Positions 1-43,622 of a stretch of 64,000 nucleotides of DNA are shown here, one piece after another (the first letter of the stretch is position 1; every line of letters starts with the position of its first letter). The notes beneath the pieces were generated by a model that was not told where the DNA came from, ran no database searches, and saw only the letters and a program-made list of their open reading frames with translations. A program made the translations under genes and the position numbers. The stretch comes from Rhynchopus sp. YZ270_cl-10 (lineage: Eukaryota), in the NCBI GenBank assembly GCA_964035575.1, contig OZ037834.1:434001-498000 (forward strand), written 5' to 3'.

Positions 1-1188
1 CGCGTAGGTTTTTTTTGGTGAGAATCGCTGTTTTTTTTTGAGGGGATGTTATAATGGGGTATTGTAGGTGTTGACCTGGTGTTGTCAACACACAACATTG
101 CTTTAGAGCGTCTCGGTTCGATAAAAGGCAAATGTGATGCTTCTATTAGGTTCGTCTAACCCACATTTTTTTTTTTTTTTTGCATTTTTTTGTGGTGCGT
201 CTATGTGCGAGAAAGGCATATCATATTGCCAACTTTTTTTTTACGTTCATGAAGGTTCATACAACCGTGCCTGGGATAGGAGGTGCTTAGGGGCATACCC
301 CCTCGGGGAAAAATTCGAAAAACGTTGGTGATGGCATAGTTGCATGGGGGAAGGGGAGGGAGAGAGGGAGGGAGGGTTTTTTTTTAAAGGTACTACACAC
401 TAAATACGCAAGAAGTACGCAATGTGGGGTCGTCAGGAGCACCAAACAACTTTATTTTTTGTTCTCTCTCTCTTTCTTGCCCTTTTATTGCGGATGTGGT
501 ATTGCCAGAATAAGGCACATCTCCATCTTACAGGGTTCCTTTTTGGAGGAATGCTATCAATTCATTGAAATGTATATCGTCGAAATATTTGCAAGCACAC
601 TGTGTAGACGGGCCTTTGTATTTCAAAGCCAACCTTTGTTTGTATCCATGCTCCCCTCCATCTCTCCCGTGCCTGAAATTATAGAATTTAACTTCTATTT
701 GATCAAAAAAAAAAAAAAAATAACCCCATCTCTCCCTCTCCCTCCTCCCCGCCCACCCCGCTGTCATATGCTGCTGTTCAAGACCACCCTCCCTCCCCCC
801 ATATGTGATTTTTTTTTTTTGATAAAACAACTTGTTGTCAAATTCTAAGATTGGAGGGCAGCGCTGCGGGGCAAACAAAAAACGGATTGAAAAATAATAT
901 TTTTTATCGTGTAATTTTTGACTCGTGTACAAATCCTTCAGGAAGAACCAAAAATTATAATCTGGGAGCGTGTAATTATTACCAAGCGTGTAATTATGAA
1001 TCGTTAGCGATTTGCGACCAAAAATGTCAGCCGTGTAATTATGGGTAATAATTACACGCTCAAACCCACTTTTGTTTCTCCCTCCACACACTCTTCAAAT
1101 CATCACCATCAGGTTTTTACAAACTTCTATTTTCTCTCTCTCCCCTCTTTTCTCAGTTTTTTTTAAAAAAGCAAACCAAATACACACA

Positions 1189-1449
1189 ATGGGCGGCCAC
1201 AGTTCTAAGAACTCGAAGAAGTGCTCGGATGTCAACTCCAATGAGTCCGTAGAGTACAAGGGTGCAGCGCTTGCGAAAGGGTCCTCTAACAGCCCCAGGT
1301 CAAAGTACGTGAGCCCTGTCATGAGCGGTCCGGGGAAAGAGGTTGACAACCAGGCCTCAAACGACTTCCCTCCAATGATGATGTACCAATCACCGAGCGA
1401 TAAGAAGAACAGATACCGCGTTGTGATGGTAGGTGGGCAAGACAACTGA
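1189..1449 (+). CDS. Small hypothetical protein (86 aa) with an N-myristoylation-type start (MGGHSS)
   Basis: ATG at 1189 follows a pyrimidine tract ending in CAG (1154-1156). The ORF is a GC-richer island without homopolymer runs. MGxxxS consensus is followed by basic residues. No family recognised. Confidence 0.5.
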   Translation: MGGHSSKNSKKCSDVNSNESVEYKGAALAKGSSNSPRSKYVSPVMSGPGKEVDNQASNDFPPMMMYQSPSDKKNRYRVVMVGGQDN

Positions 1450-2677
1450 TGCCAAGAGAAAAAAAAAATTCTGTAGTACATAGGCTTCGGCCGACATTGA
1501 GTACAGATCGTTATACCAGTAGGTATAACGTGATTGTCGATGCAACAAAAATCCCCCCCTTCCCCAGATGAGGACGATGTCGATACCTTCTAAAAGGCTT
1601 TTGATATATGGTGTGAAAGTGATGGTCGGCAGAACAATGACAGTGAAGACTGTCTGAAATGCTTGGCTAAACCAAACAGATTATTTTTCAAAAAAAAAAA
1701 GAATAATGGTTTTGGTTCTTATACAAATGTTAATTACCTAAACGAAATAATCAAAAAAAAAAAAAAAAAAAAGAAATAAAAAGTGTCTGGATGACGTTAT
1801 CCGGGTCACACTGAAACAGATTTATCAAAAAAAAAGAGAAAAAAAAACGAAAAAATAGTACCAATACCTTGGCTATCTAACAAAAAATAATGTCAGATCC
1901 CTCATATTTTATTTTGGTGACTGAGGTTCAGTGAAGATTGTAGACTCATCACCCCAAACCACCCCCTTTTCCCTCTTTTTCTTTTTTCTCTCGCCCCTTA
2001 TCTGCTGGTTTCAATATGGACCCCGCGGCTCTCAAATAATTTTTTTTTTCTTTTGTTGTGTTTTTCTTTTTTTGTTTCTTTTTATTGAAGACAGGCTGTG
2101 GAAGCAATGCTTATACCACTGTTACCCTTTCTTCATGTAAGATATGTGTCCACGTCAAGTGTTGTACACTCATCTTTCAGTTTTTTTTTTCTCTCTTTTT
2201 CCCAAGCAACTCCATGCACCCCTCCCATCCCAAAAAAAAAACAAATCTTCATTTTTTTTCAACGAGTGCAAAAAAAAAAAAAAATTACAGTTGTTCCTAA
2301 ATTGCCTATTCTTTCATGGATTTTTCAAAAAAAAGTATGTGTCATGTAACCTGTTTATTTTGCATGCTTGAAAAATTCTCGAAAAAATTTCCAATATTTA
2401 GGAGTAAGCCTGACAGTGAAGACTGTCTATATGCTACACTAATCCAACGATCAAAAAAAAAAAAGGGGGAAAATCTTACAAACCACCTGATTTTGTCTGA
2501 AAATTTGATGGACTTTAGTGGTATTAAAAACCATTTTTAGCACCCACCAAAACTCCACCAAAATTTCAGGCAAAGTCAGGTGGGCAAAAACGTATCGATT
2601 TTTTCTATAATAAAACATCACTCTATCTCTCATTCCCTTTTCCCCACCCCCTTGAGACCGAAATAGAAAATACAAAG

Positions 2678-4819
2678 ATGTTCCAAAGAGACTGCGTGAA
2701 CCCTTATTGTGACCGGAGAAGATGCCGAGAAAAGGTCGTCACGCGGATCCCTCTCAATATCATTGTGGCCCTTAAAAAATACTCCTACACCCAAGATAAT
2801 AAGGCCATTAAGAAAACGCTTAAATGTCATATCCCTCGCAGCGTAATCTTAAACGGTCACACATATTTCCTCGAAACTGCGGGAATCCACCAAGGTCCGT
2901 CGGCAACAACTGGTCATTATAGGTGTATACGCTTCCGCGGTCCTACAGGATTCAACACGCTGTTGGATGACCAATACCAGTATGCAATCAATGAGCGTTG
3001 CACGACAGAGCTTCTACAAAAAGAAGGGTACTTACTGGTGTTTAGGAGAGAGAAACCCAAGATCAATGGAACGCACCCTCCGACGCCAAACAGTGTACCC
3101 AATACCCCATACGGTAGCGAAAAGGAACCACGAGGTCCAACAGACCCCATTCCAAGCGCACAAGAGACCAAAACGTTCATAGCGAAGCCACCATCCACAG
3201 TAACCCATAAACAACAGGCAGCACCTAAAGTGGTAACTTACTGTGCGTCTCCGGTCAAACAGGCACCTCCCCCTTCTGTTACACCGGTTGCGAAACAGAG
3301 GGGTGCCCCCCCGTCAGTTGCCTTTGGATGCGGACAACAAAACGCCACTCCTTCCACAAAAGGAAAAAGCATGGACTTGGATGAAAATGTGTGGACAAAA
3401 AGTACTCTCAGGGAGAAACAAACCCCTATGAGACAAACAAGACCACCCGCAACGCCAATGACCGAAAGACATGTTGCTACCCCGGATATCAACATGAACC
3501 TCTTTACGTCGCCATACAATGAACAGAGACCAGGGGCACCTACCCCAATGAGAACAGGGAACCCTGAACTGCCCCAATATGGCACATCAACGTCTTTCAC
3601 GCCTACAAAGCAACCGGTGCAACAGGAAGCATGGAGTACAACAGAGACAATGCCTCCACCACCCATGCCTCCCCCAACAAAGGCACAAACGCCCAGGGTG
3701 CAGCCAAACGGCACAATGGAAGACGAAGCCCCTCCAACAAAGGGTTATGCAACACGTCCTCCTCCGCCAACAACGGCACATACACCTAGGATGCAACAAA
3801 GCGGCACAATGGAAGACGAAGCACCTCCAACGAGGGTCTATGCACCGCGTCCTCCTCCACCACCGCCACCTCCAACGGTGCCTCCTGAGGAGAGACAAGC
3901 AAGGACCACCGACGTTTTTTTCACATGTAAAAATGAAACTATTAAGAAAAAAGCATATCGATGGGACGAAATAGCATCCCCCGAAGGTGGAAGAAAGCGC
4001 AAAACTAGAGAGAACAAATGGACGCATGTCCCACCGAAGGGCACAAAGGCAAAAACACCCCAGCGGAAACATACGGCTTTAGTCGAACAGAACCAAAAGG
4101 GTACTAACAAGGCAGACCAAAAAGGAACGAAAAGGAAAACCAGGGCAACGGAAACTCCGAGCAAAAGCTCTGACCTCTTCAAATCACGTAGAGTGGACGC
4201 TGAGAAGCCCTCTGACCTCTCTAAAAGCCCTCAAACGACACAGGAGTCTCCAACGAAGGGTACAGCCTTACAGGAACCCGAAGAAGCTTATGAGTCGCAG
4301 AATCCATACACAAAACTTGCACGCAAAAAAAATAAAAGGAAGGAACACGACTCCGTACGGGCTTCACCTGGACATCTCCTCAAAAAGGCTAAAAAACAAG
4401 AGGCCACTGAGGAGCAAAGGACCAAGCAAAAAATCCAGGCCGAAACAAGGCCTACACCAAACAAGATACCGGAGAAAACTGGTCCAATAATGTGTCAGGG
4501 ATGTGAAAGATACTCCACAATTGGGGATGACACAATATTCACGGAGGAACTCTTAAAGAAGCATCAACGACGGTGTAAGGGATGGCGGGAGATGATGAAG
4601 TCTCCTGAAGTTTCGGAAGCATCCGGAGACGAAGCCATTTTCGAGGACTCCGAATCACAATCTGATTCCGAGCCTTCACTGGACTCCTGTGAAACTGACT
4701 TGACACGATTAACGTGCTCACTCTGTGGCAAAGGAACAACTAAAAAAGGACAGGCCTTTACCCCTTCTTCCTTAAAAAACCACAAAAGGCACTGCAAACT
4801 TTGGTCTGATGCAATATAA
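2678..4819 (+). CDS. 5'-truncated ORF: C-terminal half of a USP (peptidase C19) deubiquitinase domain, Pro/Thr/Lys-rich linker, two C2HC zinc fingers
   Basis: USP motifs: P-x-x-IIVALKK, His box YFLETAGIHQGPSATTGHY, LLDD, GYLLVFRR. No Cys box. Zinc fingers CQGC...HQRRC and CSLC...HKRHC. Internal ~93-bp duplication (GTMEDEAPPT twice). Confidence 0.75.
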   Translation: MFQRDCVNPYCDRRRCREKVVTRIPLNIIVALKKYSYTQDNKAIKKTLKCHIPRSVILNGHTYFLETAGIHQGPSATTGHYRCIRFRGPTGFNTLLDDQYQYAINERCTTELLQKEGYLLVFRREKPKINGTHPPTPNSVPNTPYGSEKEPRGPTDPIPSAQETKTFIAKPPSTVTHKQQAAPKVVTYCASPVKQAPPPSVTPVAKQRGAPPSVAFGCGQQNATPSTKGKSMDLDENVWTKSTLREKQTPMRQTRPPATPMTERHVATPDINMNLFTSPYNEQRPGAPTPMRTGNPELPQYGTSTSFTPTKQPVQQEAWSTTETMPPPPMPPPTKAQTPRVQPNGTMEDEAPPTKGYATRPPPPTTAHTPRMQQSGTMEDEAPPTRVYAPRPPPPPPPPTVPPEERQARTTDVFFTCKNETIKKKAYRWDEIASPEGGRKRKTRENKWTHVPPKGTKAKTPQRKHTALVEQNQKGTNKADQKGTKRKTRATETPSKSSDLFKSRRVDAEKPSDLSKSPQTTQESPTKGTALQEPEEAYESQNPYTKLARKKNKRKEHDSVRASPGHLLKKAKKQEATEEQRTKQKIQAETRPTPNKIPEKTGPIMCQGCERYSTIGDDTIFTEELLKKHQRRCKGWREMMKSPEVSEASGDEAIFEDSESQSDSEPSLDSCETDLTRLTCSLCGKGTTKKGQAFTPSSLKNHKRHCKLWSDAI

Positions 4820-5030
4820 CCTTTCATTCGTCTCAACAGAGTACGAACAAAGGGCCCTAGGTGAGGCGGGCGACGATCACCTGACAATCAAATATCTCCT
4901 CTTCTCTTTTTCTTTTATTGTGTGTACCCTACAAAACTTTATGGATAATGGCTGTTGCTCCATTTTTCCTTTTTTCTTTTTTTCTCCTTTTTTTTTTTTG
5001 AAAGCATGAAAAGAACTAATATGAACCTCT

Positions 5031-5121
5031 TCCTCTCTGATGACTGAGGAGGGTCTTCGGACCCTGGCCGCGTGAGGTTCTTAGTTTTTCGCAGGTCAGA
5101 GGATTAGCGGCCGAAACCTGC
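5031..5121 (+). ncRNA. Hammerhead-ribozyme-like motif with permuted strand order
   Basis: CTGATGA 5037-5043, GAAA 5113-5116, GTC 5095-5097. Stem I TCCTCT(5031-36)/AGAGGA(5098-5103). Stem II GGCCGC(5066-71)/GCGGCC(5107-12). Stem III GCAGGT(5091-96)/ACCTGC(5116-21). A cUUCGg hairpin is inserted at 5050-5065. Confidence 0.6.
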
Positions 5122-7810
5122 AAAACACACAAACATTTACAGACAGCACAAGGCATGGATTAAATCGTCATCTCAAAAAGTAACGTACCTTGTCTTAACG
5201 ACCCTTGGTCATGCTGCAAAAGTAAACAAACAAATAAGCAAAAAAGTACAAAATAAAGTAGCAAAAGCAAAAACAAAACAAAACAAAACAAACTTTCAAA
5301 CCCCCTTGAGACACCCCAACTCTGGTTGTAGGTTTTTCAAAAAAAAAAATGCAATTTTTATTTTTAGATTTTGTGTGTTGATACAGCTGGACACACTGTT
5401 TATCTCGACACTTCCCCTCCGGCAAGGGCTTGATCTTTCCCAGCAAGCTAACCATCTGCCCGAGTTTTTTTCTTTTTTTTTTCTTTTATTTTTTTTGTAC
5501 CTACAAAAAAGCGTAGGCTTAAAAGGAGAAATAGGTCCTCAGATACGGTCGCCAAATCACCCCCCTCCAAGCAATCAGCGAAAAAAATCATTTCCCCCCC
5601 CCCCCCCCCTTTTTGCTTACCTATCAGAGTTACTATTTTTTTTTAAAGTAGTGAGAGGGCAAACCACACTTCGGTGGGTTGTTGCACTCAAGTATACGAA
5701 AAAACCACCCAAATGCCAATGTGTGTGCGCTGCTGGTACTGCACCAATGTTAGCGATGACTGCCCTAAACCAATCGGACCAGATCCCCTACCACCCGTGA
5801 CGAGAACCAACAGCTAATGCGCTCACAGGCATTTTTTTTTCTTCCTTTTCAACAGAAGATTAATTTTATACCACCCTGCGCGACTTTCTTTTATTTTGAA
5901 AAACACGAAAAAAGATTCCTGAAGACCAATTGGTCATGGATCCAAAACACAAAAGCAACAACAAAACAAAAAAGCAAATAGTACATTTTTAAAGACCACC
6001 AAAACAAAAAGAGCACAAAGCAAAAACAACAACTTTCTGACAAACACCCTGCGCGACTTCCCTCTTTTTTTTTTCTCTCTCTCCTTCGGTGACTAAGCAT
6101 GAGAAGCTTAGACATCATTTTCAACTTTTTTTTTTATTACTCCTCCCCTAGTCAACACCCTCGGGCGAGACGCATATTGTTGTACAGACGAAAGCCTTTC
6201 TCAGAGTGGGTGATTGTCTGTACACAATGACCGAATCAAGTTTTTTCCCAAAAAAAAAAAAAAAAAAAAAAAAAAAGTGGAGAAATGACACAGATGGTCG
6301 AAGCGAGGATTTATTGAAATACACAACTTTTTTTTGGAGAGATTTTTGCACAAAAACTGTGGCAACACAAAACCGAGGCAACTACGCTACTCCAATAATT
6401 TATCAAAAAAGGGGGGGGGGGGGGGGGGAAAGAACAAATCAAAATGCTTCGTCAAACGTTGAGTACAGCCCGAGATAGTCACTAAAGTGGATATTGTGGG
6501 CGATTGTCGATATAATAGCAAAAAAAAACAAACACATACACTGGGCTCTGAAACCAGATTGAGTACAGTGCATTAACCCACTTCCAAAAAAAAAAACAGG
6601 TTTCTTCTGGTGGACTGTGTCGATCCAAAGGAAAAAGAATGAGGAAAAGGGAAGCTGTCCCCCCTGCCCCGTCGCAGTGTGGAACCCCGCTAAGTAGCAC
6701 AACAACAAAACTAAGCAAGAGGCAGTACCAGTGGCGCGGCTACCAATAACTACCGCGTAGTCAGCGTCACGCCTACCATGGTAGGTTACAGTGAAAAAAA
6801 AAAAAAAAAAAAAAAAAAAGAATAGTGGAGTGCATCCTCGGGTGTTTATCTACTACAACCAAGTTTTCAAAAAAAAAAAAAAAAAAAGGGAACAAAAACA
6901 GAAACCTCAAATTACCAGATACCCCGTTCTTGGCGTGTCATCATTTATTTCAAGTTTTATCTTTTTCTTCGATTCTTTATTATTTTTATTTTTGTTGTGG
7001 GTTTTTTTTAAGTCTACTCCCTAAGTGCAAGAGACTTACTTAGGCCCATATTCCCAAACACTTCTCCTCCATCACCCCTTTTTGTCATTGTCATTTTTTT
7101 TTCTTTTCTTTTCAAGGTGCCCAAGCACACGAGAGGCTTAGGTTCATCTCATAAAATTTTCTTTACTTTTTAAAAGATGGTTTTTTTTTTTACTCTCCCC
7201 TTCCCTGCAAAAATAGCAACTCTCATTGAAAAACTGGTAACACTTTTGTTGTCTATACCATTAAAAAGTTTTAAAGATGGTAGGTTACAGTGGGGGGGGA
7301 CAAGATGTGTGTGCACACAGAGAGGCTCTTCCATCTTTCATAAGTTTTCATGTTTTTGATTTTTTTTTCTTATTTTTTTTTTTTGATTTTGTGCCTGCAT
7401 CCGCCGATGAACGGCGAGGTGTTTGCACTTTCAACACCCCCCCTTTTTTTCTTTGTTGCACTCCGGGGTTCGATAACCCGCGGAGTGTCAGTGCCTGCGT
7501 CCTAGAGGCGTTTTGCACTATCAACTTTCGCTTTTTTGTTGTACCGTCGTAATCTACGGAAGTTTCAACTTGTGCACGAAGCATTTTACTTTTCTTTTTT
7601 TTTACGTTTTGCAAAACATAAAAAAGAAAGTTGGGGAACATTTTTTATTGATCCCCTCCTCCTATGCTATCAATTTATTGATTTGCATATGATGAAAATA
7701 CTTGTTGTATCGTTCCTTTTTTTTTTCTGACTTCCGTACCTTCCCCAAATCTCCCTCTTTTCTCTCTCTCTCTCTCCCTCTTCTTTTTTCCTTTTTCCTT
7801 TTCGCGATAG

Positions 7811-7853: not shown

Positions 7854-8078
7854 AAAAACAAAACGAATTCAAGTGTCGGGGGAAGTACACTTACCTTATC
7901 AAGAAAGAGAGTCCACCCAGTCCGCTCTTCCCACAGCCGTCTCTTCTTCTCAATAGAAAGAAGGCCTGGGTTCATTCTTTTATGTGTCTGTTCTACTTCC
8001 CCCCCCACTTTGACATTTGTCAATAAAATAGTGGGAGCACATTCTTGGGTGTCAACACTAAACTGCAATATCCATAGA

Positions 8079-8543
8079 TATAGAATGCGCATCATGCGCA
8101 AATTGTGTAAAAAAACATGCGCGTATATTTTGTGTTTTTTTTGATGCGCATGATTTTTGTGTTTTTTTATTCATGCGCATACAAAAAAACAAAACAACAT
8201 GCGCATATTTTTTTGTGTTTTTCTTGATGCGCATGTTTTGTGTTTTTTTTATGTCATGCGCATACAAAAAAACAAAAGTGGATGCGCATATTTTTTTGTG
8301 TTTTTCTTCATGCGCATGTCTTTTTGTGTTTTTTTGTGTTTTTTTGGTATGCGCATCACACATATGTGTGATGCGCATACCAAAAAAACACAAAAAGACA
8401 TGCGCATGAAGAAAAACACAAAAAAATATGCGCATCCACTTTTGTTTTTTTGTATGCGCATGACATAAAAAAACACACAAAAAACATGCGCATAACACAA
8501 TTATGCGCATTACGCGCATCATGCGCATGATGCGCATTCTCTA
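8079..8543. mobile_element. Foldback/MITE built from ATGCGCAT palindromes
   Basis: Terminal inverted repeat (T)AGAATGCGCATCATGCGCA. Near-perfect ~230-bp internal palindrome centred at 8363/8364. No clear TSD. Confidence 0.7.
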
Positions 8544-8596
8544 GCTATGAATATCGAGATTTCATTTTTTTATTTTATTGTGATGAAAGATGACTA

Positions 8597-14949: not shown

Positions 14950-15340
14950 ATGAAACATTTTTCTTTACGTTTTGTCGAAACATACCACATAAAAAGAAAG
15001 TTGAGAATATCTTTTGATACCCTATGCCCTATGCAACCTATTTATTGAAATGCTGTATTCGTACAAAAAAAAATATCGACCGTAATAATATTCGACCTTT
15101 TCAGGATTTTTTCTGGAAGTTCGACCTTTTTTTTTACGGTCGAACATTTTTTCTTTTACGCTGTTACTCTAATCTTGTTTGTTATGTGCTCTTTTCGTGC
15201 CTATCTCTGACTACTATTCAGTACGAAACAGATAGGCACTACCCCCTTCCCCCCCATTCTTTATTTTTTCCTCTCTCTCTCTCCGTAAAAGTGACTAAGC
15301 ACAGAGATGCTTAGGGTCATCTTACCAGGGGGGGACCTGA

Positions 15341-15466
15341 GGTAATGGTGTCAGTATTGTGATGGGAGCCCATTGGAATACGCAAAATACATCACAATAC
15401 ACGTGTATTGTGATGTATTTTGATGTATTCCAATGGGCTCCCATCACAATACTGCCACCAATAACC
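15341..15466. repeat. ~125-bp near-perfect palindrome (MITE-like)
   Basis: CAGTATTGTGATGGGAGCCCATTGGAATAC...GTATTCCAATGGGCTCCCATCACAATACTG, centred on AATACACGTGTATT. Confidence 0.75.
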
Positions 15467-18400
15467 TGAGGGGGGAGTTCGATAACCCATTTGTGCCTGT
15501 TTTGTCCCAGAGGCGTTTTGCACTATCAACTTCACCCCCTCTTCACTTTTTTTTTTTATACGCGTGCTACTTTGGGTGGGGTAATGACTGCGCTTACAGT
15601 TTCCCTGTAAACCACTCCCAAGCGCAACACTCCGGGGGCTTCGATAACCCGCGGAGTATCAGTGCCTGCGTCCCAGAGGCGTTTGCACTATCAACTTCAT
15701 TTTTTTTTTCTTTTTACGCATGCTACTTTGTGGAAAGTACAGCCTTTTTTTCCCTTTTTCTCCTTTTGCTTTTGTTCATGGATACTGAAATCTGGGGGAG
15801 AAAAAAAAATAGTATGAAAACCCAAGATTCACACAATTTCCCAGATTTTCCAGATCTGGTCTCACCAGATTTCATCATCTGGAAAAAGTCAGATCCTGGG
15901 ATTTGATTTACCAAAAATCTGGCCAGATCTGACAGTTACTTCCGTGATATGACCAAAAGGGATGGGGAATATTTTGATCCTTATACCCGGTACTTTCACT
16001 TTCATTTGAACGTTTTGGGTATAATGCTCCCTTTTTTTACGCACACTACTTTGTGAGCGGAAAGTGTCACGTCGTTCACTCACCCAACCGTGCTCCGCAA
16101 CACCACCACCCAACAGGTGATTTTTAGTGTGTGTGGAAGCGTCAACGCATCAAACTACAAGAAGGAGGGTGAGGGAACGACAAGTGACACTTTGCTTTTG
16201 TCTTTTTGGCAAAATGCATCTATTTTGACCAGCAAACTACTATACACGAATACCCCCCATCATCTTCCCCCTCTCTCTCCCTCCCTTAGGGAAAGCTAAA
16301 AAAAAACAAGTAATTGCTATCGGAAAAAAAACGGGGTGTGATGTGGAACTCCATCCTGTAGAAATAATCTACAACATGCCCAGCATTCTGCTCTTCTGCA
16401 GGTATGCTAACGCTCTTCGTAAGCTGCCAGACCCACTGGGACGCCAGCATCTGAAACGTTCAAGAAGGGGGGCTGTCCTCTTCGTCCAGCACCATCTGCT
16501 CGATAGCGTTGTTTGACGTCGGCTCGGCAGGCTCGGCGTGTTCCAGCTCGTTTTTGTCCACAGGCTCCCCACATTGTCGTCGTCGTTGGAGCAGTGCGGA
16601 GGGAACACAGAATGCACAGACTACAACACATCGATCACACCAGGCACATCAACACCTCCAGCAAATCGCCAGGATACTACGGTGGTTTCGAAAATCGCGC
16701 GGAGTTTTCCACATCACACCCGTTTTTCCTTAGCAATTACTTGTCCTTGTTGCTATTGTTGTTTTCAACCACCTTCCTTCAACCCTTGTAGGGATCAGTT
16801 GTAATTTTTTTTCGCGAAAACATGAAATTATACATTTCAAGAGAACAAATTAAAAAGGGTCCTTATTTGCATTTTTGGGCTCCGCCCGTGCAGTGGTGGG
16901 GTCAATCTCGAAAATTGGACAATTTTTTGACCACTTAAATTTTGAGAAATATGAGCCCGGTTGCTTATACGTGGGGCCCATTTTCAGCTAAAATTTTCCT
17001 CAAAATCCGGGTTTGTAAAATTGACCCTTTCCCCCCCCCCACATCGATTTCAATACTATACCTTACTTCACCTACGGTTACCCTTACAGGGGGGGGTGAA
17101 GGAAGGTAAGTTGAAAACACAAACACAAAAAAAGCAAAAAACAATAAATTACGGTGCTTTGAAAGAAAGAACCATAGGTCTACCGGGTGTAGTCAGCGTC
17201 ACGCCTCCCTCAGTAGGTTACAGTGAGGTATAGAAATTCAGGGGCCAGAATAAATTAGCACAACCAAGAGAATGCAGCAGCTTCGGGACCCCCTCTTTTT
17301 TTCAAATCTAAAATAAAATAATATATTTTCACGCACACCAAAGAAGAAGAAGAAGGAAAAAACAGGGCATTTGTCTGGACAACTGTAGGTCAGTAGCTAT
17401 CATAGACCTGTTTATGTTGGGTATCTATGTGTGCACAAGAGAGGTACATTCATCTTATAAATTTTCTTTTCTTTTGTTTTTCTTGTTCACTAATAAAACC
17501 CCAGCTTTTTTCTCTTTCTTTTGAAGAAGGCGGCTAATCAGCAGACGAAGTTAAGGATTTCTCAAAAGAAAAAAAAATTTTTTTTCACCTTTTTTTTTTT
17601 GTTGTGCGTTTGAAACCAATGACTGGGCGTTCCCTGATCGAGGAACCATTGTCCCGTTTTATGGCCATGTCCAGTCTTCTGGGCATTTTTTTTTTTTTTC
17701 TCTTTCAATTTCAATTTTTGTTATAAAAAAAATATCCATTTTTTTCTTTCCTTCCTATGCATCAAACGCATCTTTAAAAAAAAACCTCCCCACATTCCAA
17801 CAATAAAAACACAACTGCAATAGCGAATACACAGCGAAGGCTGTGATTTGCACTATTTCAGCACCCCCCCCTCTTTCTTATCGCGATACCGAATGTGATC
17901 AACAAAAATAAAAAAAGACGGGATGTCTCGTTTTTTTTTAAACATCCTTTTGTGTGCTTTCTCTTCTGTGAATGGAAAGTGCATGATATTAGCCCCTTTT
18001 TTCTTCATTTAGACATCGCGGTTACTCTCTTGTGATAGTAGTCAAAAACCAAATATTTTTTTTCCAATGATAAACCACTAGCACTCATATTGTACCGTAG
18101 CCTACTTTTTTCTATCAATTGGGCTTTGTTATAGTTTTGTTCTTTCCCTCCCCTTCCCCCCTTTTTGTCAAACACGTTATTTCCTTGATGTGTGTGTTTT
18201 GATTATCAAAAAACAGTGGGTTATCCCGCAAAAAAAAAAATTATTATAGCCTGAAAGGGGAGGCAAGCCCACGCTGCTGACGTGGCACAGTGTCTTCACA
18301 TCACAATGCGAAAAAGTCTTCCACTTCTCGTCCTTCGCATTCCTCAACAGTTCTGATGCGCTATTTGAGCCGTGTTTCAATAAAAAGTATAGTGGAGCAC

Positions 18401-19048: not shown

Positions 19049-19535
19049 TGGTGCTTCCCGGGGGGTATGCATTTCACAAATTTTCAATTCAATTCACAAC
19101 TTTTCACAACTATTCACAACTTTTCACTACCCTTTTTTCTCTCGTTGGTGAAGCTTTTAAACGCCGGCATTTGCATTTCCGGAATCCGTCCGGCCAGTGG
19201 TGGGGTCAATTTGCCGAAATGGACAAGTTCTCGTCATTTCCGCACATCACACAGTACACAGGTACACAGGTACACCACATCACGTTCTATCTTGTGAATC
19301 CCAGCGTGCCCCTCAATGGGTGGGTCACCACCCGCCCAAAAAAAAAGCACTCACAAAAAAAAAATCAATTCACAACTTTTCACAACTATTCACAACTTTT
19401 CACATTTTTTCACAACTTTTCACCACTTTTCGCCAGCCTTCACAATTTTGTAGCAGTTTTCGTGTGGTGAAAATTTGTGAAAACTTGTCACATTTTGTGA
19501 AAATTTGTGAAATGCACACCCCCCGGGAAGCACCA
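19049..19535 (+). mobile_element. ~490-bp TIR element (MITE), copy 1
   Basis: ~38-bp TIR TGGTGCTTCCCGGGGGGT(A/G)TGCATTTCACAAATTTTCA. Subterminal TTCACAA arrays. Confidence 0.9.
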
Positions 19536-19559
19536 GTATTGTTCAATATAACTCATATT

Positions 19560-20014
19560 TGGTGCTTCCCGGGGGGTATGCATTTCACAAATTTTCAATT
19601 CAATTCACAACTTTTCACAACTATTCACAACTTTTCACCACCCTTTTTTCCTTCGTTGGTGAAGCTTTTAAATGCCGGCATTTGCATTTCCGGAATCCGT
19701 CCGGCCAGTGGTGGGGTCAATTTGCCGAAATGGACAAGTTCTCGTCATTTCCGCACAGTGCACAGTACACAGGTACACAGGTACAACACACCACGTTCTA
19801 TCTTGTGAATCCCAGCATACCCCTCAATGGGTGGGTCACCACCCAACCCAAAAAAAACTCAAATCAATTCACAACTTTTCACAACTTTTCACAATTTTTC
19901 ACCATTTTTCACCAGCCTTCACAATTTTATAGCGGTTTTCGTGTTGTGAAAACTTGTGAAAACTTGTCACATTTTGTGAAAATTTGTGAAATGCATACCC
20001 CCCGGGAAGCACCA
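19560..20014 (+). mobile_element. ~455-bp TIR element (MITE), copy 2, tandem to copy 1
   Basis: Same TIRs and body as copy 1, separated from it by 24 bp. Confidence 0.9.
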
Positions 20015-20646
20015 GCTCATTTATTTCTTTTATTTATTTTTTCCATCTTCTGTTGTTGGCTGCAGGGTACTTGCGCTTTCATTCGGGGCTGATATCGTAC
20101 GTGGGTCAGTCGGAGGTGCCTGCATCAACAGCTTCAATTTGGGTTTTTTTTTCCTTCGTTTTTCGCAAATTTCCGTGATCGGTGGATTTCATTCTTTTTT
20201 CTTTTTTCTTCTTTTTTTTGTACAGGTGCCCTCCGTTCTTGCAGAAGACAATGAACACCTTTTGTTCCATCCTCCTTTCCACGGTGGCAAGCACAGTGAA
20301 GAGACGACCTCAAAAAAAAAAAAAAACGCCTCTTTTCTTTCATATCCCTCCCCTTTTGAGGGGGGGCATTCATCTTCGAAATGGTTTCTTCCCAATTTTA
20401 TTTTTAAAATCTCACGAAAAAGAGAATAAAAAAAAATCCCATATCCCTCTAGTTTTTTTTGTCTCCTCCCTCAACACTAAACACACCTCCCCTCCCACCT
20501 TCCGTCTACAAAACGATCAAGCAAAATTAGACAGAGCACAAAGCACTTTCAAAACATACAAAAAAAAAACATTTTCAAACTCCCCTCCCACCTTCAACCC
20601 TTTTTCAGACCACTCTCCTACTCCCCCACACATCTCCACTTCCCTA

Positions 20647-22194
20647 ATGGACCGTCCAGCCAAACGCCGTCGTGTTGACGAAGGTAGCATCCTCCTTGCG
20701 CAGATGCTGCAATGCTCTGCAGGAGATATGGCAGTGTGCACTCCAGTACACCGTGCACGGATCCTCAGTGAACAGCTCGGGTGTGACGTGCATCTTAAGC
20801 GTGAAGACACACAGATCGGCTTTTCACATCATATACGTACTGCTTATACGTTGGTCTCCGCTTTGTCGGATGATGCACTGCACGGAAGGATTGTAGTAAC
20901 TGGACATGGAAATTTTGCGCACGCTGTCGCTCTTGCGCTAGACAGAGTGGTTGGGGAAAGCACAGCGCACGCCACCTCTTTAACCCTCACTGCGGTGCTG
21001 CCGGAGACAACCCCGTCGTTGTTGTTGAGACAGCTCAGGTCGTTTGTGTTTCGGTGTAACGCGGTTTTAGAGGTGGTCCTTGAAGGAAACACACAAAGCG
21101 CGACCCGAAAGCATGCCGATATTTTAGTCAAACAACACAACGCAGTTCTTTTGCAAAACACCGAAGGGTCTGAGGCAGTGGCAGCTGCAGGGTCTCTCGC
21201 GGTGGAGCTTTTCGCGCAACTCCCTTCTGTCGCGGGTACTGTGTATATTGGTGTAACGTCAGGAGCACTGTTAGCAGCGATCTCAGAATATGCGGCACAA
21301 ATTCACCCAGAAACTACAGTGGTAGCCGTTGAAGCGGAAGGTGAACACTCCTTATCAAAGAGATTAGCAAACGAAGAGCGATCCAACCGGACCGTACCAA
21401 ATGAGTATGCCGTCACCATCATTGCGAAGCACCTCAAATCGGGTCGAGTCCGGTTTCTGAGTGCCTCCCATGATGAGCAGTGCGCCGCAATAAAATCAGT
21501 ATTCCTCGACACCCGATCCATTCTTGAACCTGCCGGCGCATTGTCCGTCGCTGGGTTGAAGAAGGACGGTGTAAAAGAAAATGCAGGGATTGCTGTTGCG
21601 GTGCTTGGATCTGCAAATCTCGAGTTTACTACTCTCAGAAGTATTGCAGAACGCAGTGAAGAAAATGAAGTATTGGTTACCGTGGAGCTTCCAGAAGAGA
21701 ACGGCGCATTTAAAAGGATGTACAGCCATATTTACCCCCAACCGGTGACGGAGTTCTCTTATAGGTATGGAGGCGGGAAGAAGGCGGATGTGTTCATGTC
21801 GTTTGCAGTGAAGAGTGCGCAGGAAGGTGCTGCTGTGGTGTCGGCGTTAAATGGGAATGGGTTTCCGTGTACGCCACTGAAGGAGAATGAGCTGGCGAAG
21901 GCGCACGCTAGGTATCTAGTAGGGGGGAGAGGCGGGCCGGCAGATGAAAGGCTGCTGAGGTTTCAGTTTCCAGAGAATGGTGATGCCCTGCAGCAGTTTC
22001 TCGGGGCGTTGCCGGCGTTTGCAGGGGTGAGTCTCTTCCATTACCGCAACCATGGGGCAGATTTTGGCAAAGTGCTGGTAGGCATGAACGTGCCTGCGGA
22101 GCATGAAATCCGCTTTCAAACCTTCCTCTCCACAGTGGAATATGAATACACAGATGAAACATCGAACCCGTTTTATCGAATGTTTTTGAGGTGA
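20647..22194 (+). CDS. ilvA: Threonine dehydratase/deaminase (IlvA)-like protein, 515 aa, probably catalytically inactive, with intact C-terminal regulatory ACT-like domains
   Basis: Motifs TPV...LSEQLG..VHLKREDTQ, DTRSILEPAGALSVAG, SANLEF, TEFSYRY, NELAKAHARYLVGGR, ERLLRFQFPE, SLFHYRNHGAD, DETSNPFY. PLP-lysine site reads FSHHIRTAY. Start inferred at ATG 20647 (MDRPAKRRRV). Confidence 0.9.
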   Translation: MDRPAKRRRVDEGSILLAQMLQCSAGDMAVCTPVHRARILSEQLGCDVHLKREDTQIGFSHHIRTAYTLVSALSDDALHGRIVVTGHGNFAHAVALALDRVVGESTAHATSLTLTAVLPETTPSLLLRQLRSFVFRCNAVLEVVLEGNTQSATRKHADILVKQHNAVLLQNTEGSEAVAAAGSLAVELFAQLPSVAGTVYIGVTSGALLAAISEYAAQIHPETTVVAVEAEGEHSLSKRLANEERSNRTVPNEYAVTIIAKHLKSGRVRFLSASHDEQCAAIKSVFLDTRSILEPAGALSVAGLKKDGVKENAGIAVAVLGSANLEFTTLRSIAERSEENEVLVTVELPEENGAFKRMYSHIYPQPVTEFSYRYGGGKKADVFMSFAVKSAQEGAAVVSALNGNGFPCTPLKENELAKAHARYLVGGRGGPADERLLRFQFPENGDALQQFLGALPAFAGVSLFHYRNHGADFGKVLVGMNVPAEHEIRFQTFLSTVEYEYTDETSNPFYRMFLR

Positions 22195-22830: not shown

Positions 22831-25800
22831 ACCCGCAAACCCGCAAACCCGCAAACCGCAAACCCGCAAACCCGCAAACCGCAACCCGCAAACCCGCAAA
22901 CCCGCAAACCCGCAAACCCGCAAACCCGCAAACCCGCAAACCCGCAAACCCGCAAACCCGCAAACCCGCAAACCCGCAAACCCGCAACCCGCAAACCCGC
23001 AAACCCGCAAACCCGCAAACCCGCAAACCCGCAAACCCGCAAACCCGCAAACCCGCAAACCCGCAAACCCGCAAACCGCAAACCCGCAAACCCGCAAACC
23101 CGCAAACCCGCAAACCCGCAAACCCGCAAACCCGCAAACCCGCAAACCCGCAAACCCGCAAACCCGCAAACCGCAAACCCGCAAACCCGCAAACCCGCAA
23201 ACCCGCAAACCCGCAAACCCGCAAACCCGCAAACCGCAAACCCGCAAACCCGCAAACCCGCAAACCCGCAAACCCGCAAACCCGCAAACCCGCAAACCCG
23301 CAAACCCGCAAACCCGCAAACCCGCAAACCCGCAAACCCGCAAACCCGCAAACCCGCAAACCGCAAACCCGCAAACCGCAAACCGCAAACCCGCAAACCC
23401 GCAAACCCGCAAACCCGCAAACCCGCAAACCCGCAAACCCGCAAACCCGCAAACCCGCAAACCCGCAAACCCGCAAACCCGCAAACCCGCAAACCCGCAA
23501 ACCCGCAAACCCGCAAACCCGCAAACCCGCAAACCCGCAAACCCGCAACCCGCAAACCGCAAACCCGCAAACCCGCAAACCCGCAAACCCGCAACCCGCA
23601 AACCCGCAAACCCGCAAACCCGCAAACCCGCAAACCCGCAAACCCGCAAACCGCAAACCCGCAAACCCGCAAACCCGCAAACCCGCAAACCGCAAACCCG
23701 CAAACCCGCAAACCGCAAACCCGCAAACCCGCAAACCCGCAAACCCGCAAACCCGCAAACCCGCAAACCCGCAAACCCGCAAACCGCAAACCCGCAAACC
23801 CGCAAACCCGCAAACCCGCAAACCCGCAAACCCGCAAACCCGCAAACCCGCAACCGCAAACCCGCAAACCGCAAACCCGCAAACCCGCAAACCCGCAAAC
23901 CCGCAAACCCGCAAACCCGCAAACCCGCAAACCCGCAAACCCGCAAACCCGCAAACCCGCAAACCCGCAAACCCGCAAACCCGCAAACCCGCAAACCCGC
24001 AAACCGCAAACCCGCAAACCCGCAACCGCAAACCCGCAAACCCGCAAACCCGCAAACCCCGCAAACCCGCAAACCCGCAAACCCGCAAACCGCAACCGCA
24101 ACCCGCAAACCCGCAAACCCGCAACCCGCAAACCCGCAAACCGCAAACCGCAAACCCGCAAACCCGCAAACCCGCAAACCCGCAAACCCGCAAACCCGCA
24201 AACCGCAAACCGCAAACCCGCAAACCCGCAAACCCGCAAACCCGCAAACCCGCAAACCCGCAAACCCGCAAACCCGCAAACCAACCGCAAACCCGCAAAC
24301 CCGCAAACCCGCAAACCCGCAAACCCGCAAACCGCAAACCCGCAAACCCGCAAACCCGCAAACCCGCAAACCCGCAAACCCGCAAACCCGCAAACCCGCA
24401 AACCCGCAAACCCGCAAACCCGCAAACCCGCAAACCCGCAAACCCGCAAACCCGCAAACCCGCAAACCCGCAAACCCGCAAACGCAACCGCAAACCCGCA
24501 AACCCGCAAACCCGCAAACCCGCAAACCCGCAAACCCGCAAACCCGCAAACCCGCAAACCCGCAAACCCGCAAACCCGCAAACCCGCAAACCCGCAAACC
24601 CGCAAACCCGCAAACCCGCAAACCCGCAAACCCGCAACCCGCAAACCCGCAAACCCGCAAACCGCAACCCGCAAACCCGCAAACCCGCAAACCCGCAAAC
24701 CCGCAAACCCGCAAACCCGCAAACCCGCAAACCCGCAAACCCGCAAACCCGCAAACCCGCAAACCCGCAAACCCGCAAACCCGCAAACCGCAACCGCAAA
24801 CCCGCAAACCCGCAAACCCGCAAACCCGCAAACCCGCAAACCCGCAAACCCGCAAACCCGCAAACCCGCAAACCCGCAAACCCGCAACCCGCAAACCCGC
24901 AAACCCGCAAACCCGCAAACCCGCAAACCCGCAAACCCGCAAACCCGCAAACCGCAAACCGCAAACCCGCAAACCCGCAAACCCGCAAACCCGCAAACCC
25001 GCAAACCCGCAAACCCGCAAACCCGCAAACCCGCAAACCCGCAAACCCGCAAACCCGCAAACCCGCAAACCCGCAAACCCGCAAACCCGCAAACCCGCAA
25101 ACCCGCAAACCCGCAAACCCGCAAACCCGCAAACCCGCAAACCCGCAAACCCGCAAACCGCAAACCCGCAAACCCGCAAACCCGCAAACCCGCAAACCCG
25201 CAAACCCGCAAACCGCAAACCCGCAAACCCGCAAACCCGCAAACCGCAAACCCGCAAACCCGCAAACCCGCAAACCCGCAAACCCGCAAACCCGCAAACC
25301 CGCAAACCCGCAAACCCGCAAACCCGCAAACCCGCAAACCCGCAAACCCGCAAACCCGCAAACCCGCAAACCCGCAAACCCGCAAACCCGCAAACCCGCA
25401 AACCCGCAAACCCGCAAACCCGCAAACCCCGCAAACCCGCAAACCCGCAAACCCGCAAACCCGCAAACCCGCAAACCCGCAAACCCGCAAACCCGCAAAC
25501 CCGCAAACCGCAAACCCGCAAACCCGCAAACCCGCAAACCCGCAAACCCGCAAACCCGCAAACCCGCAAACCCGCAAACCCGCAAACCCGCAAACCCGCA
25601 AACCCGCAAACCCGCAAACCCGCAAACCCGCAAACCCGCAAACCCGCAAACCCGCAAACCCGCAAACCCGCAAACCCGCAAACCCGCAAACCCGCAAACC
25701 GCAAACCCGCAAACCCGCAAACCCGCAAACCCGCAAACCCGCAAACCCGCAAACCCGCAAACCCGCAAACCCGCAAACCCGCAAACCCGCAAACCCGCAA

Positions 25801-28800
25801 ACCCGCAAACCCGCAAACCCGCAAACCCGCAAACCCGCAAACCCGCAAACCCGCAAACCCGCAAACCCGCAAACCCGCAAACCCGCAAACCCCGCAAACC
25901 CGCAAACCCGCAAACCCGCAAACCCGCAAACCCGCAAACCCGCAAACCCGCAAACCCGCAAACCCGCAAACCCGCAAACCGCAAACCCGCAAACCCGCAA
26001 ACCCGCAAACCCGCAAACCCGCAAACCCGCAAACCCGCAAACCCGCAAACCCGCAAACCCGCAAACCCGCAAACCCGCAAACCCGCAAACCCGCAAACCC
26101 GCAAACCCGCAAACCGCAAACCCGCAAACCCGCAAACCCGCAAACCCGCAAACCCGCAAACCCGCAAACCCGCAAACCCGCAAACCCGCAAACCCGCAAA
26201 CCCGCAAACCCGCAAACCCGCAAACCCGCAAACCCGCAAACCCGCAAACCCGCAAACCCGCAAACCCGCAAACCCGCAAACCCGCAAACCCGCAAACCCG
26301 CAAACCCGCAAACCCGCAAACCCGCAAACCCGCAAACCCGCAAACCCGCAAACCCGCAAACCCGCAAACCCGCAAACCCGCAAACCCGCAAACCCGCAAA
26401 CCCGCAAACCCGCAAACCCGCAAACCCGCAAACCCGCAAACCCGCAAACCCGCAAACCCGCAAACCCGCAAACCCGCAAACCCGCAAACCCGCAAACCCG
26501 CAAACCCGCAAACCCGCAAACCCGCAAACCCGCAAACCCGCAAACCCGCAAACCCGCAAACCCGCAAACCCGCAAACCCGCAAACCCGCAAACCCGCAAA
26601 CCCGCAAACCCGCAAACCCGCAAACCCGCAAACCCGCAAACCCGCAAACCCGCAAACCCGCAAACCCGCAAACCCGCAAACCCGCAAACCCGCAAACCCG
26701 CAAACCAAACCCCAAACCCGCAAACCCGTAAACGCAAACCCGAAACCGCAAACCCCGCAAACCCGCAAACCGCAAACCCGCAAACCCGCAAACCCGCAAA
26801 CCGCAAACCGCAAACCCGCAAACCCGCAAACCCGCAAACCCGCAAACCCGCAAACCCGCAAACCCGCAAACCCGCAAACCCGCAAACCGCAAACCCGCAA
26901 ACCCGCAAACCCGCAAACCCGCAAACCACCGCAAACCCGCAAACCCGCAAACCCGCAAACCCGCAAACCCGCAAACCCGCAAACCCGCAAACCCGCAAAC
27001 CCGCAACCCGCTAACCCGCAAACCCGCAAACCCGCAAACCCGCAAACCCGCAAACCCGCAAACCCGCAAACCCGCAAACCCGCAAACCCGCAAACCGCAA
27101 ACCCGCAAACCCGCAAACCCGCAAACCCGCAAACCCGCAAACCCGCAAACCCGCAAACCCGCAAACCCGCAAACCCGCAAACCGCAAACCCGCAAACCCG
27201 CAAACCCGCAAACCCGCAAACCCGCAAACCCGCAAACCCGCAAACCCGCAAACCCGCAAACCCGCAAACCCGCAAACCGCAAACCCGCAAACCCGCAAAC
27301 CCGCAAACCCGCAAACCCGCAAACCCGCAAACCCGCAAACCGCAAACCCGCAAACCCGCAAACCCGCAAACCCGCAAACCCGCAAACCCGCAAACCCGCA
27401 AACCCGCAAACCCGCAAACCCGCAAACCCGCAAACCCGCAAACCCGCAAACCGCAAACCCGCAAACCCGCAAACCCGCAAACCCGCAAACCCGCAAACCC
27501 GCAAACCCGCAAACCCGCAAACCCGCAAACCCGCAAACCCGCAAACCCGCAAACCCGCAAACCCGCAAACCCGCAAACCCGCAAACCCGCAAACCGCAAA
27601 CCCGCAAACCCGCAAACCCGCAAACCCGCAAACCCGCAAACCCGAAAACCCGCAAACCCGCAAACCCGCAAACCCGCAAACCCGCAAACCCGCAAACCCG
27701 CAAACCCGCAAACCCGCAAACCCGCAAACCCGCAAACCCGCAAACCCGCAAACCCGCAAACCCGCAAACCCGCAAACCCGCAAACCCGCAAACCCGCAAA
27801 CCCGCAAACCCGCAAACCCGCAAACCCGCAAACCCGCAAACCCGCAAACCCGCAAACCCGCAAACCCGCAAACCCGCAAACCCGCAAACCCGCAAACCCG
27901 CAAACCCGCAAACCCGCAAACCCGCAAACCCGCAAACCCGCAAACCCGCAAACCCGCAAACCCGCAAACCCGCAAACCCGCAAACCCGCAAACCCGCAAA
28001 CCCGCAAACCCGTAAACCCGCAAACCGTACCCGCAAACCCGCAAACCCGCAAACCCGCAAACCCGCAAACCCGCAAACCCGCAAACCCGCAACCCGCAAA
28101 CCCGCAAACCCGCAAACCCGCAACCCGCAACCCGCAAACCCGCAAACCCGCAAACCGCAAACCCGCAAACCCGCAAACCCGCAAACCCGCAAACCCGCAA
28201 ACCCGCAAACCCGCAAACCCGCAAACCCGCAAACCCGCAAACCCGCAAACCCGCAAACCGCAAACCCGCAAACCCGCAAACCCGCAAACCCGCAAACCCG
28301 CAAACCCGCAAACCCGCAAACCCGCAAACCCGCAAACCCGCAAACCCGCAAACCCGCAAACCCGCAAACCCGCAAACCCGCTAAACCCGCAAACCCGCAA
28401 ACCCGCAAACCCGCAAACCCGCAAACCCGCAAACCCGCAAAACCCGCAAACCCGCAAACCCGCAAACCCGCAAACCCGCAAACCCGCAAACCCGCAAACC
28501 CGCAAACCCGCAAACCGCAAACCCGCAAACCCGCAAACCCCAACCCGCAAACCCGCAAACCCAAACCCGCAAAACCCGCAAACCCGCAAACCCGCAAACC
28601 CGCAAAACCCGCAAACCGCAAACCCGCAACCCGCAAACCCGCAAACCCGCAAACCCGCAAACCCGTAAACCCGCAAACCCGCAAACCCGCAAACCCGCAA
28701 ACCGCAAACCCGCAAACCCGCAAACCCGCAAACCCGCAAACCCGCAAACCCGCAAACCCGCAAACCCGCAAACCCGCAAACCCGCAAACCCGCAAACCCG

Positions 28801-43130: not shown

Positions 43131-43622
43131 TGGTGCTTCCCGGGGGGTGTGCATTTCACAAATTTTCACAAAATGTGACAAGTTTTCACAAATTTTCACA
43201 ACACGAAAACCGCTACAAAATTGTGAAGGCTGGTGAAAAGTGGTGAAAAATTGTGGAAAAATGTGAAAAGTTGTGAATAGTTGTGAAAAGTTGTGAATTG
43301 ATTTTTTTTTTTTGTGTGCTTTTTTTTTTGGGCGGGGTGGTGGTGACCCACCCATTGAGGGGTACGCTGGGATTCACAAGATAGAACGTGATGTGGTGTA
43401 CCTGTGTACCTGTGTACTGTGTGATGTGCGGAAATGACGAGAACTTGTCCATTTCGGCAAATTGACCCCACTACTGGCCGTACGGATTCCGGAAATGCAA
43501 ATGCCGGCGTCTAAGAGCTTCACCAACGAGAGAAAAAAGGGTAGTGAAAAGTTGTGAATAGTTGTGAAAAGTTGTGAATTGAATTGAAAATTTGTGAAAT
43601 GCATACCCCCCGGGAAGCACCA
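43131..43622 (-). mobile_element. ~490-bp TIR element (MITE), copy 3, inverted, 5-bp TSD ACTGT
   Basis: Reverse complement of 19049-19535. ACTGT at 43126-43130 and 43623-43627. Confidence 0.92.

What the first reader, a model, noticed from the sequence alone, without database searches (positions are those of the whole stretch)
2646..5312. Retro-inserted element encoding a USP deubiquitinase domain and zinc fingers, with a 3' hammerhead-like RNA
Seen: a 13-bp direct repeat (ACCCCCTTGAGAC) brackets a 2.64-kb segment that ends in an A-rich/(CAAAA)n tail. Its intronless ORF starts mid-USP domain (His box IHQG..TTGHY and DD present, Cys box absent) and ends in two C2HC fingers. Established: 5' truncation plus TSD plus tail is the signature of target-primed reverse transcription. 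Ingi/L1Tc elements have ~12-bp TSDs and C-terminal zinc fingers but a 5' HDV-like ribozyme, whereas Penelope-like elements carry hammerheads. The ubiquitin-like proteases I know in TEs are mainly Ulp1/OTU types. Inference: this is the 3' end of a possibly undescribed retroelement family whose protein carries a C19/USP deubiquitinase, perhaps countering ubiquitin-mediated host control.
Basis: partly seen in the sequence, partly recalled or inferred. Interest (0 to 1): 0.85.

Follow-up and report, generated by a model that had tools for sequence, protein, structure and literature searches.

The report
Deubiquitinase-armed Penelope retroelement with permuted hammerhead
This is the cut-off 3' end of a Penelope-like retrotransposon in a likely diplonemid protist; its full-length relatives join endonuclease and reverse transcriptase to a predicted ubiquitin-removing protease (USP), and its 3' UTR holds a predicted hammerhead ribozyme with its parts in a rearranged order, a form that likely explains why this transposon group was reported to lack canonical hammerheads.

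Summary
Observation confirmed. Window 2659-5299 is a 5'-truncated copy with a 12-13-bp target-site duplication. Its ORF is identical over 719 residues to the C-terminus of a 1900-aa protein with a Penelope-type RT and a complete USP; a 2366-aa sister adds an N-terminal GIY-YIG without CCHH. It is a Chlamys-type Penelope-like element, not Ingi/L1Tc and not a pseudogene. Two such families in Diplonema papillatum are annotated as ordinary ubiquitin hydrolases. Of 149 RT relatives, 22 carry a ubiquitin-type protease after the RT (12 USP, 6 Josephin, 3 OTU, 1 Ulp1); 13 of 13 complete USPs aligned keep the catalytic residues; one USP clade is rejected. The 3' UTR holds hammerhead blocks in the non-circular order C-S-G, with a 22-nt insert after CUGAUGA. 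Seven of 15 related metagenome loci have the same plan with two extra helices and covariation, and, read by eye, several published Naiad consensus ends carry such hammerheads, although that clade was reported to lack canonical ones. Neither enzyme activity nor RNA cleavage was tested; the empty allele was not seen. This copy itself is dead.

The parts
2646..2658 (+). left target-site duplication (13 bp; last base is a 1-nt microhomology with the element)
2659..5299 (+). 5'-truncated copy (2641 bp) of an N-terminal-GIY-YIG Penelope-like element at least 7.4 kb long
2660..4819 (+). C-terminal 719 codons of the polyprotein ORF, identical to P0001 residues 1182-1900
2660..3055 (+). C-terminal half of the USP (C19) domain: His box 2885-2920, DD 2960-2974; Cys box lost with the truncation
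3668..3862 (+). 93-bp tandem duplication in the Pro/Thr-rich linker
4493..4576 (+). C2HC-like finger 1 (CxxC-x19-H-x3-C)
   Evidence: Pfam below threshold
4715..4795 (+). C2HC-like finger 2 (CxxC-x18-H-x3-C); one similar finger ends the D. papillatum relative P0007
5011..5121 (+). predicted non-circularly permuted (type CSG) hammerhead: stem I 5031-36/5098-5103, core 5037-43, insert 5044-65 with hairpin Y 5050-65, stem II 5066-71/5107-12, 3-nt S-to-G linker 5104-06, GAAA 5113-16, stem III 5091-96/5116-21, I-II helix 5023-29/5074-80 and 5011-19/5081-89; predicted cut after 5097
5216..5299 (+). A/C-rich 3' end
5300..5312 (+). right target-site duplication

Best explanation
The segment is a 5'-truncated copy of a Penelope-like retroelement whose full-length relatives encode GIY-YIG endonuclease, reverse transcriptase, a complete USP domain and C2HC-like fingers in one ORF; it was likely inserted by target-primed reverse transcription, the USP likely removes ubiquitin to protect the element's protein, and the 3' UTR is predicted to fold as a non-circularly permuted hammerhead. 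Shown: domain order, truncation point, duplication, multi-copy near-identical relatives, conserved USP catalytic residues, covarying RNA helices in relatives. Inferred: the endonuclease nicked the target, RT primed in or at the A/C-rich 3' end of an uncleaved RNA (the copy keeps about 200 nt beyond the predicted cut), stopped after 2.64 kb and joined through a 1-nt microhomology. Inferred: the slot after the RT thumb takes any ubiquitin/UBL protease (USP, Josephin, OTU, Ulp1), which points to selection for deconjugation as such, most likely to save the polyprotein/RNP from proteasomal clearance (about 0.55), otherwise to strip marks at the target or repair site. This copy lacks EN, RT and the USP Cys box and would be inactive.
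For: P0001: 719 identical C-terminal residues, UCH E 1.6e-9 over 6-254/254, RVT_1 E 6e-4. P0002: GIY-YIG 387-474, CxC, DKA, RT. Six cluster members on contigs of six lengths; P0002 starts in a different host repeat (42 of 43 aa match window 16981-16853). Run X6 continues upstream of 2658 with element sequence; X4 bridges the left junction; depth steps up toward the 3' end in X1, X2, X4. D. papillatum: 7 of 11 cluster members full-length, 99.5-100% identical; second family. 22 of 149 RT relatives with a protease, all 22 after the RT. 13 of 13 complete USPs keep Cys, His, Asp/Asn. Model of P0021 matches USP18/USP46/USP1, E 1e-15, TM to target 0.68-0.76. Only RT among the best 60 PDB hits of the profile is telomerase RT. 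RNA: 0 of 20000 shuffles; 7 of 15 loci, 0 in 1.1 Mb shuffled; 126 of 128 cells paired, own strands 55/56 against swapped 70/168.
Against: No empty allele and no right-junction reads were examined; no genome is held. No pLTR, tandem or inversion at this copy, which are typical of PLEs. GIY-YIG and RVT_1 Pfam scores of P0002 are below the curated cut-offs; P0001 has no significant PDB sequence hit. P0002 and run X6 carry a 27-bp deletion just after the catalytic His, so some near-full copies have a damaged USP; P0047's USP match lacks the Cys-box end. Many full-length relatives have no C-terminal extension, so a protease is not needed for this clade. Contig depth is not copy number.
Confidence: 0.85

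Rival explanations
1. The USP is not a counter-defence deubiquitinase but a polyprotein-processing or scaffold protease that cuts the element's own protein (as viral papain-like proteases do).
For: Long disordered linkers flank the domain (pLDDT under 50 at 547-756 and 1040-1124 of P0021); four protease families fill the same slot.
Against: All four families are ubiquitin/UBL-specific by established knowledge; no general protease was found after the RT among the 149. The full ubiquitin-binding USP fold is kept.
Confidence: 0.15
2. The window RNA is a degenerate or switched-off hammerhead: the motif is real in the clade, but this version, with helix X reduced to a stub, does not cleave on its own.
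For: Competing hairpin in the MFE; 22-nt insert where Eckert 2023 reports at most 1-2 nt; the copy keeps sequence 3' of the cut site; the Anolis PLE hammerhead cleaves only with protein.
Against: Stems I, II, III are all 6 perfect Watson-Crick pairs, all core letters are intact, the 3-nt S-to-G linker and I-II helix match validated permuted forms; duplex energies of stems I and II (-7.2, -11.7) exceed the 5.9 kcal/mol gained by the competitor, without pseudoknot penalties.
Confidence: 0.3
3. Processed pseudogene of a host USP gene, or a trypanosomatid-type Ingi/L1Tc element.
For: Duplication of 12-13 bp, A-rich end and C-terminal fingers; NCBI names the D. papillatum relatives 'ubiquitin carboxyl-terminal hydrolase'.
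Against: The upstream ORF holds GIY-YIG and a telomerase-like RT with DKA, CxC and IFD, no APE or RNase H hit.
Confidence: 0.02

Closest known systems
Chlamys PLEs, especially Chlamys-1/4/6_cBra of Chara braunii (Craig et al. 2021, PMC8557442)
   Same: N-terminal GIY-YIG without CCHH, CxC, DK motif, IFD, frequent 5' truncation, long ORF with C-terminal extension holding a deubiquitinase-like domain and Cys/His motifs.
   Different: USP (C19) instead of weak Josephin; likely euglenozoan host, a lineage not in that survey (no 'euglen' in main text); clean 12-13-bp duplication in non-microsatellite DNA; permuted hammerhead (none clear by eye in the Chlamys-4_cBra 3' end).
Naiad PLEs (same paper)
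   Same: Domain order, DKA, CxC, IFD; by eye their published 3' ends carry S-to-G-linked hammerheads; five USP-bearing relatives fall among CCHH-type RTs.
   Different: The window's family lacks the CCHH and linker zinc fingers of the Naiad endonuclease; described Naiad ORFs end at the RT.
Type-CSG and type-SGC hammerhead ribozymes (Eckert et al. 2023, PMC10085705)
   Same: Block order, short S-to-G linker, helix joining the far ends of stems I and II.
   Different: Block C is split: 22 nt (window) or helices X and Y (7 loci) lie between CUGAUGA and stem II, against that paper's stated assumption; CSG was known from two metagenome sequences and none in a eukaryote genome or transposon; not assayed here.
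Dualen/RandI non-LTR elements with Josephin-like protease (as cited in Craig 2021); Ulp1/OTU in other transposons (recalled)
   Same: Ubiquitin/UBL protease fused to a mobility protein.
   Different: Different RT class and protease family.

Membership tests
Penelope-like elements (PLE) | RT related to telomerase RT, with GIY-YIG endonuclease in the same ORF | tested here: met
   P0002 GIY-YIG E 1.5e-3 and RVT_1 E 1.1e-3 (both under cut-off); P0007 GIY-YIG E 1e-4 above cut-off; telomerase RT the only RT among best 60 PDB hits
Penelope-like elements (PLE) | pseudo-LTR or tandem arrangement, optional 30-40-bp tail | tested here: inconclusive
   None at this truncated copy; relative L001 has a 127-bp terminal overlap and L008 an upstream copy end, which fit tandems; full-length DNA of the window's family not available
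Naiad/Chlamys clade | GIY-YIG N-terminal to RT, CxC motif, DK(A) motif | tested here: met
   P0002: EN 388-468, CPC 697, DKA 809, RT 980-1116; same in P0007
Naiad/Chlamys clade | insertion in fingers domain | tested here: met
   RT3-to-RT4 distance 90 aa against 93 for Chlamys-1_cBra and 60 for Penelope, counted by eye in Fig. S1
Naiad/Chlamys clade | RT phylogeny with reference elements | not tested
   Trees hold only database proteins, no named references and no outgroup
Naiad | CCHH and CX2-5CxxC zinc fingers in the endonuclease | tested here: not met
   No cysteines in or before the GIY-YIG core of P0002 or P0007
Chlamys | endonuclease lacks both zinc fingers, keeps R, H, E, N | tested here: met
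   R412, H416, E465 and a downstream N by eye in P0002; same in P0007
USP / peptidase C19 | Cys box, His box, Asp/Asn and thumb-palm-fingers fold | tested here: met
   P0001 UCH above cut-off; triad 13 of 13; fold shown for P0021, the nearest relative, not for P0001 itself; the window copy lacks the Cys box
USP / peptidase C19 | deubiquitinase activity | not testable with these tools
   needs an assay
Hammerhead ribozyme, canonical types I-III | circular block order CGS, GSC or SCG | tested here: not met
   Only order CSG found; no Rfam hammerhead hit
Hammerhead ribozyme, type CSG/SGC | core letters, stems I-III, S-to-G linker, I-II helix | tested here: met
Hammerhead ribozyme, type CSG/SGC | CUGAnGA within 1-2 nt of stem II | tested here: not met
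   22-nt insert in the window, helices X and Y in 7 of 7 loci
Hammerhead ribozyme, type CSG/SGC | site-specific self-cleavage | not testable with these tools
   needs an assay
Ingi/L1Tc | APE endonuclease, non-LTR RT, RNase H (recalled) | tested here: not met
   No such Pfam hit in P0001 or P0002

The most novel reading that the evidence does not exclude
N-terminal-endonuclease Penelope-like elements share two overlooked tools: a swappable ubiquitin-protease slot filled independently by USP (at least twice), Josephin, OTU and Ulp1, and a non-circularly permuted hammerhead, including a new five-helix form in which two extra helices split the catalytic CUGAUGA from stem II and which still self-cleaves. 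These transposons would be the main genomic home of non-circular RNA permutations in eukaryotes, and the reported lack of hammerheads in Naiad/Chlamys would be a search artefact.
Probability: 0.6. Interest if true: 0.9.

Novelty: new variant of a known kind. Interest (0 to 1): 0.82.

Why it matters
It names a testable counter-defence for a retrotransposon class with almost no known host interactions, and shows that multi-copy 'ubiquitin hydrolase' genes in the Diplonema papillatum annotation are transposons. It extends Penelope-like elements to a likely diplonemid host. The RNA finding reopens a published conclusion (hammerheads absent from Naiad/Chlamys, hence dispensable) and challenges a stated structural rule of hammerheads (no long insert after CUGAnGA); both can be tested with short in vitro transcripts.

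Tried and rejected
No genome for the window, so no copy census or empty allele. Pfam and PDB on the window fragment: nothing. Rfam: no hammerhead in the window UTR (5 weak unrelated hits) or in 7 loci (0). No RNA holder listed among 10 runs: no evidence on expression. Reads were laid on 2100-4940 only, so the ribozyme and right junction are unchecked in reads. Viral contigs: no relatives in 2 scans. A-rich match at 58327-58389 is low complexity; no element protein there. A shared target motif between this copy and the P0002 copy was considered and dropped: not in register. USP-domain tree is dominated by long branches and cannot show origin; the Atlas nearness to giant-virus USPs (0.95, 168 of 256 features) and the viral fold hits are leads only. 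First tree run timed out. MAFFT misaligned the divergent RNA families, so helices were anchored on core positions. Earlier scan notes: none. The wide structural search for the RT did not run.

Full report
Observation. The 13-mer is at 2646 and 5300 and nowhere else in the window. The ORF, His box, DD, two C2HC-like motifs and A/C-rich end are as described. The fragment alone gives no Pfam hit. The host is likely a diplonemid other than D. papillatum: for the threonine dehydratase at 20.6-22.2 kb the best 7 of 120 listed hits are 45-55% identical and include D. papillatum (45%), the rest are at most 39%.

The parent element. A search for longer proteins gave one hit, P0001 (1900 aa), identical over the last 719 residues and different upstream of codon 2660. 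It has a full UCH domain (E 1.6e-9) and an RT. Its cluster has 6 members on contigs of 6 lengths; P0006 may be this copy, P0003-P0005 are shorter C-terminal pieces. P0002 (2366 aa) adds an N-terminal GIY-YIG, then CxC, DKA, RT with a 90-aa RT3-RT4 span, USP and fingers. Its first 43 residues match a host repeat at window 16981-16853 (42 of 43), so that copy sits at another site. Contigs of 4 of 10 listed runs were laid on 2100-4940: contigs break at 2658 in X1, X2, X4; X4 bridges the left junction; an X6 contig matches 2658-4940 with a 27-bp gap at 2917 (the deletion of P0002) and continues upstream with letters that, read by eye, encode the P0001 residues before 1182. Depth rises in steps toward the 3' end (X1 357 to 554, X2 358 to 742, X4 677 to 3648), as 5'-truncated copies would give, but the tool warns that depth is no copy number. 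The empty allele and right junction were not examined.

Relatives and the protease slot. An RT-region search found P0007, named a ubiquitin hydrolase of D. papillatum, and P0008. P0007 is GIY-YIG, RT, USP, one finger; 7 of 11 cluster members are full-length and 99.5-100% identical. A second D. papillatum family (P0023, P0171) has the same plan. The representative search gave 1402 proteins at E up to 0.001; the best 150 were listed and the 149 other than P0001 scanned: UCH 12 (11 above cut-off), Josephin 6 (5), OTU 3 (1), Ulp1 1 (1), all after the RT. Many of the 149 are fragments or end at the RT, so 22 of 149 is not a frequency. A profile of my own adds P0059 and P0047; 13 of 13 complete domains aligned keep Cys, His and Asp/Asn (cut domains P0026, P0148 and the deleted P0002 left out). 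The AlphaFold model of P0021 (71% RT identity; mean pLDDT 73) matches USP18, USP35, USP1 and USP46 at E about 1e-15. In a 122-row RT tree (29 fragments and the chimeric P0022 left out of 152) the window's family lies in a 17-row group with 9 USP rows, within a 64-row branch that also holds all Josephin, OTU and Ulp1 rows; 5 other USP rows lie among CCHH-type (Naiad-like) RTs. On 40 rows one USP clade is rejected (p-AU 1e-56): several gains or replacement and loss; the trees are unrooted and hold no named references.

The RNA. A descriptor over all six block orders finds nothing with an insert up to 2 nt and one hit in the window with up to 25 nt: order C-S-G, three 6-bp Watson-Crick stems, 22-nt insert. 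The 3-nt S-to-G linker and the helix joining stems I and II match the validated permuted forms of Eckert 2023. One metagenome scan gave 15 loci of related RTs. Seven hold an S-to-G-linked hammerhead on the coding strand, none in 1.1 Mb of shuffles; they form 3 families (L001/L004/L005/L009; L003/L008; L012). Of the 8 without, L011 and L015 reach past their stop codon and show none; most others end in the ORF. In all 7, CUGAUGA is followed at once by a helix X (6-15 bp), whose partner leads into a hairpin Y and then stem II; in the window X is a 6-nt stub and Y a 6-bp UUCG hairpin. Stems I-III pair in 126 of 128 cells over 8 sequences; over 4 families own strands pair 55 of 56, swapped 70 of 168. 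In the 4-member family 95.6% of 180 cells pair, with 6 compensatory changes, above all 500 shuffles and all slid controls; relatedness inflates such counts. Rfam finds nothing.

Published Naiads, by eye only. Craig 2021 reports no canonical hammerhead in Naiads or most Chlamys, but notes stray core halves. Of 9 Naiad record ends shown hold an insert-free CSG hammerhead, 1 the X/Y form, 1 an SGC-like form with a variant core, 1 only S and G blocks in view, 2 nothing. A motif-selected search added 3 Acropora ends with the X/Y form, 1 CSG and 1 with a short stem I. Record names were inferred from file order (nematode families for CSG, Pomphorhynchus for X/Y). The Chlamys-4_cBra end shows none clearly. 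No computation was run on these.

Mechanism. Shown: architecture, truncation, duplication, conservation. Inferred from PLE biochemistry (Frangieh 2024: RT starts in an AC-rich region of uncleaved RNA; the hammerhead is protein-assisted): nick, priming at the A/C-rich end, early stop, 1-nt microhomology. The copy keeps about 200 nt past the predicted cut, so its template was uncleaved. The USP likely shields the polyprotein or RNP from ubiquitin-driven clearance; untested. This copy cannot move or catalyse.

What is known. Closest: Chlamys-1/4/6_cBra with weak Josephin. 'ubiquitin' and 'peptidase' do not occur in that main text; the D. papillatum genome paper does not mention Penelope. Ten library searches listed no paper on a USP in a PLE or on permuted hammerheads in PLEs; the library misses most subscription papers, Repbase and theses. 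PMC13725137 says hammerheads with additional helices have been reported; its refs 13 and 31 were not read, so the X/Y form may have a precedent. Seen: PMC8557442 parts 1-5 of 10, passages, supplement parts 1, 2, 46, 47, 53, 54 of 59 and three searches; PMC10085705 parts 1, 3, 4, 5 of 8 and passages, supplement not read; PMC11167929 parts 1-2 of 4; bioRxiv 2026.07.22.740005 parts 1-2 of 5, supplements closed; PMC10161547 (its repeat supplement not read), PMC9940879, PMC13725137 passages only. Ingi/L1Tc features and Ulp1/OTU in other transposons are recalled.

Verdict. New variant of a known kind; identity 0.9, active USP in intact copies 0.8, self-cleavage of the window RNA 0.65, interest 0.82.

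Noticed in passing
window 22831-31397: About 1080 copies of an 8-bp satellite between assembly gaps; the ORF on the minus strand beyond it (about 31.9-33.7 kb) looks like a hAT-type transposase (recalled motifs, not tested).
   Followed up: no
window 16853-16981 (-), related copies near 8896, 12904, 63078: Dispersed host repeat; another copy of it forms the left flank of the P0002 element copy.
   Followed up: partly
window 45064-52651: Large intron-split surface protein with many repeated domains and a transmembrane end.
   Followed up: no
window 20650-22194: Threonine dehydratase whose nearest group includes D. papillatum, next hits mostly bacterial at 39% or less.
   Followed up: partly
window 8068-8554, 15336-15471, 19049-20015, 43131-43622: Palindromic, MITE-like repeat families.
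   Followed up: no
P0022: Gene model joining a kinesin to GIY-YIG/RT pieces of what look like two PLE families; likely intron-resident insertions.
   Followed up: partly
P0008, P0061, P0159, P0162: Further cargo after RT: DnaJ behind USP (P0008) and behind OTU (P0061), malectin-like, PHD.
   Followed up: no
L001, L004, L012, L011, L015: OTU-like (L001, L004) and Josephin-like (L012) motifs by eye without Pfam hit; Ulp1 in L011 and L015, the two loci with a 3' UTR but no hammerhead hit.
   Followed up: partly
P0114, P0119, P0129, P0148, P0161: A separate USP-bearing group among CCHH-type (Naiad-like) RTs, hosts unknown.
   Followed up: partly
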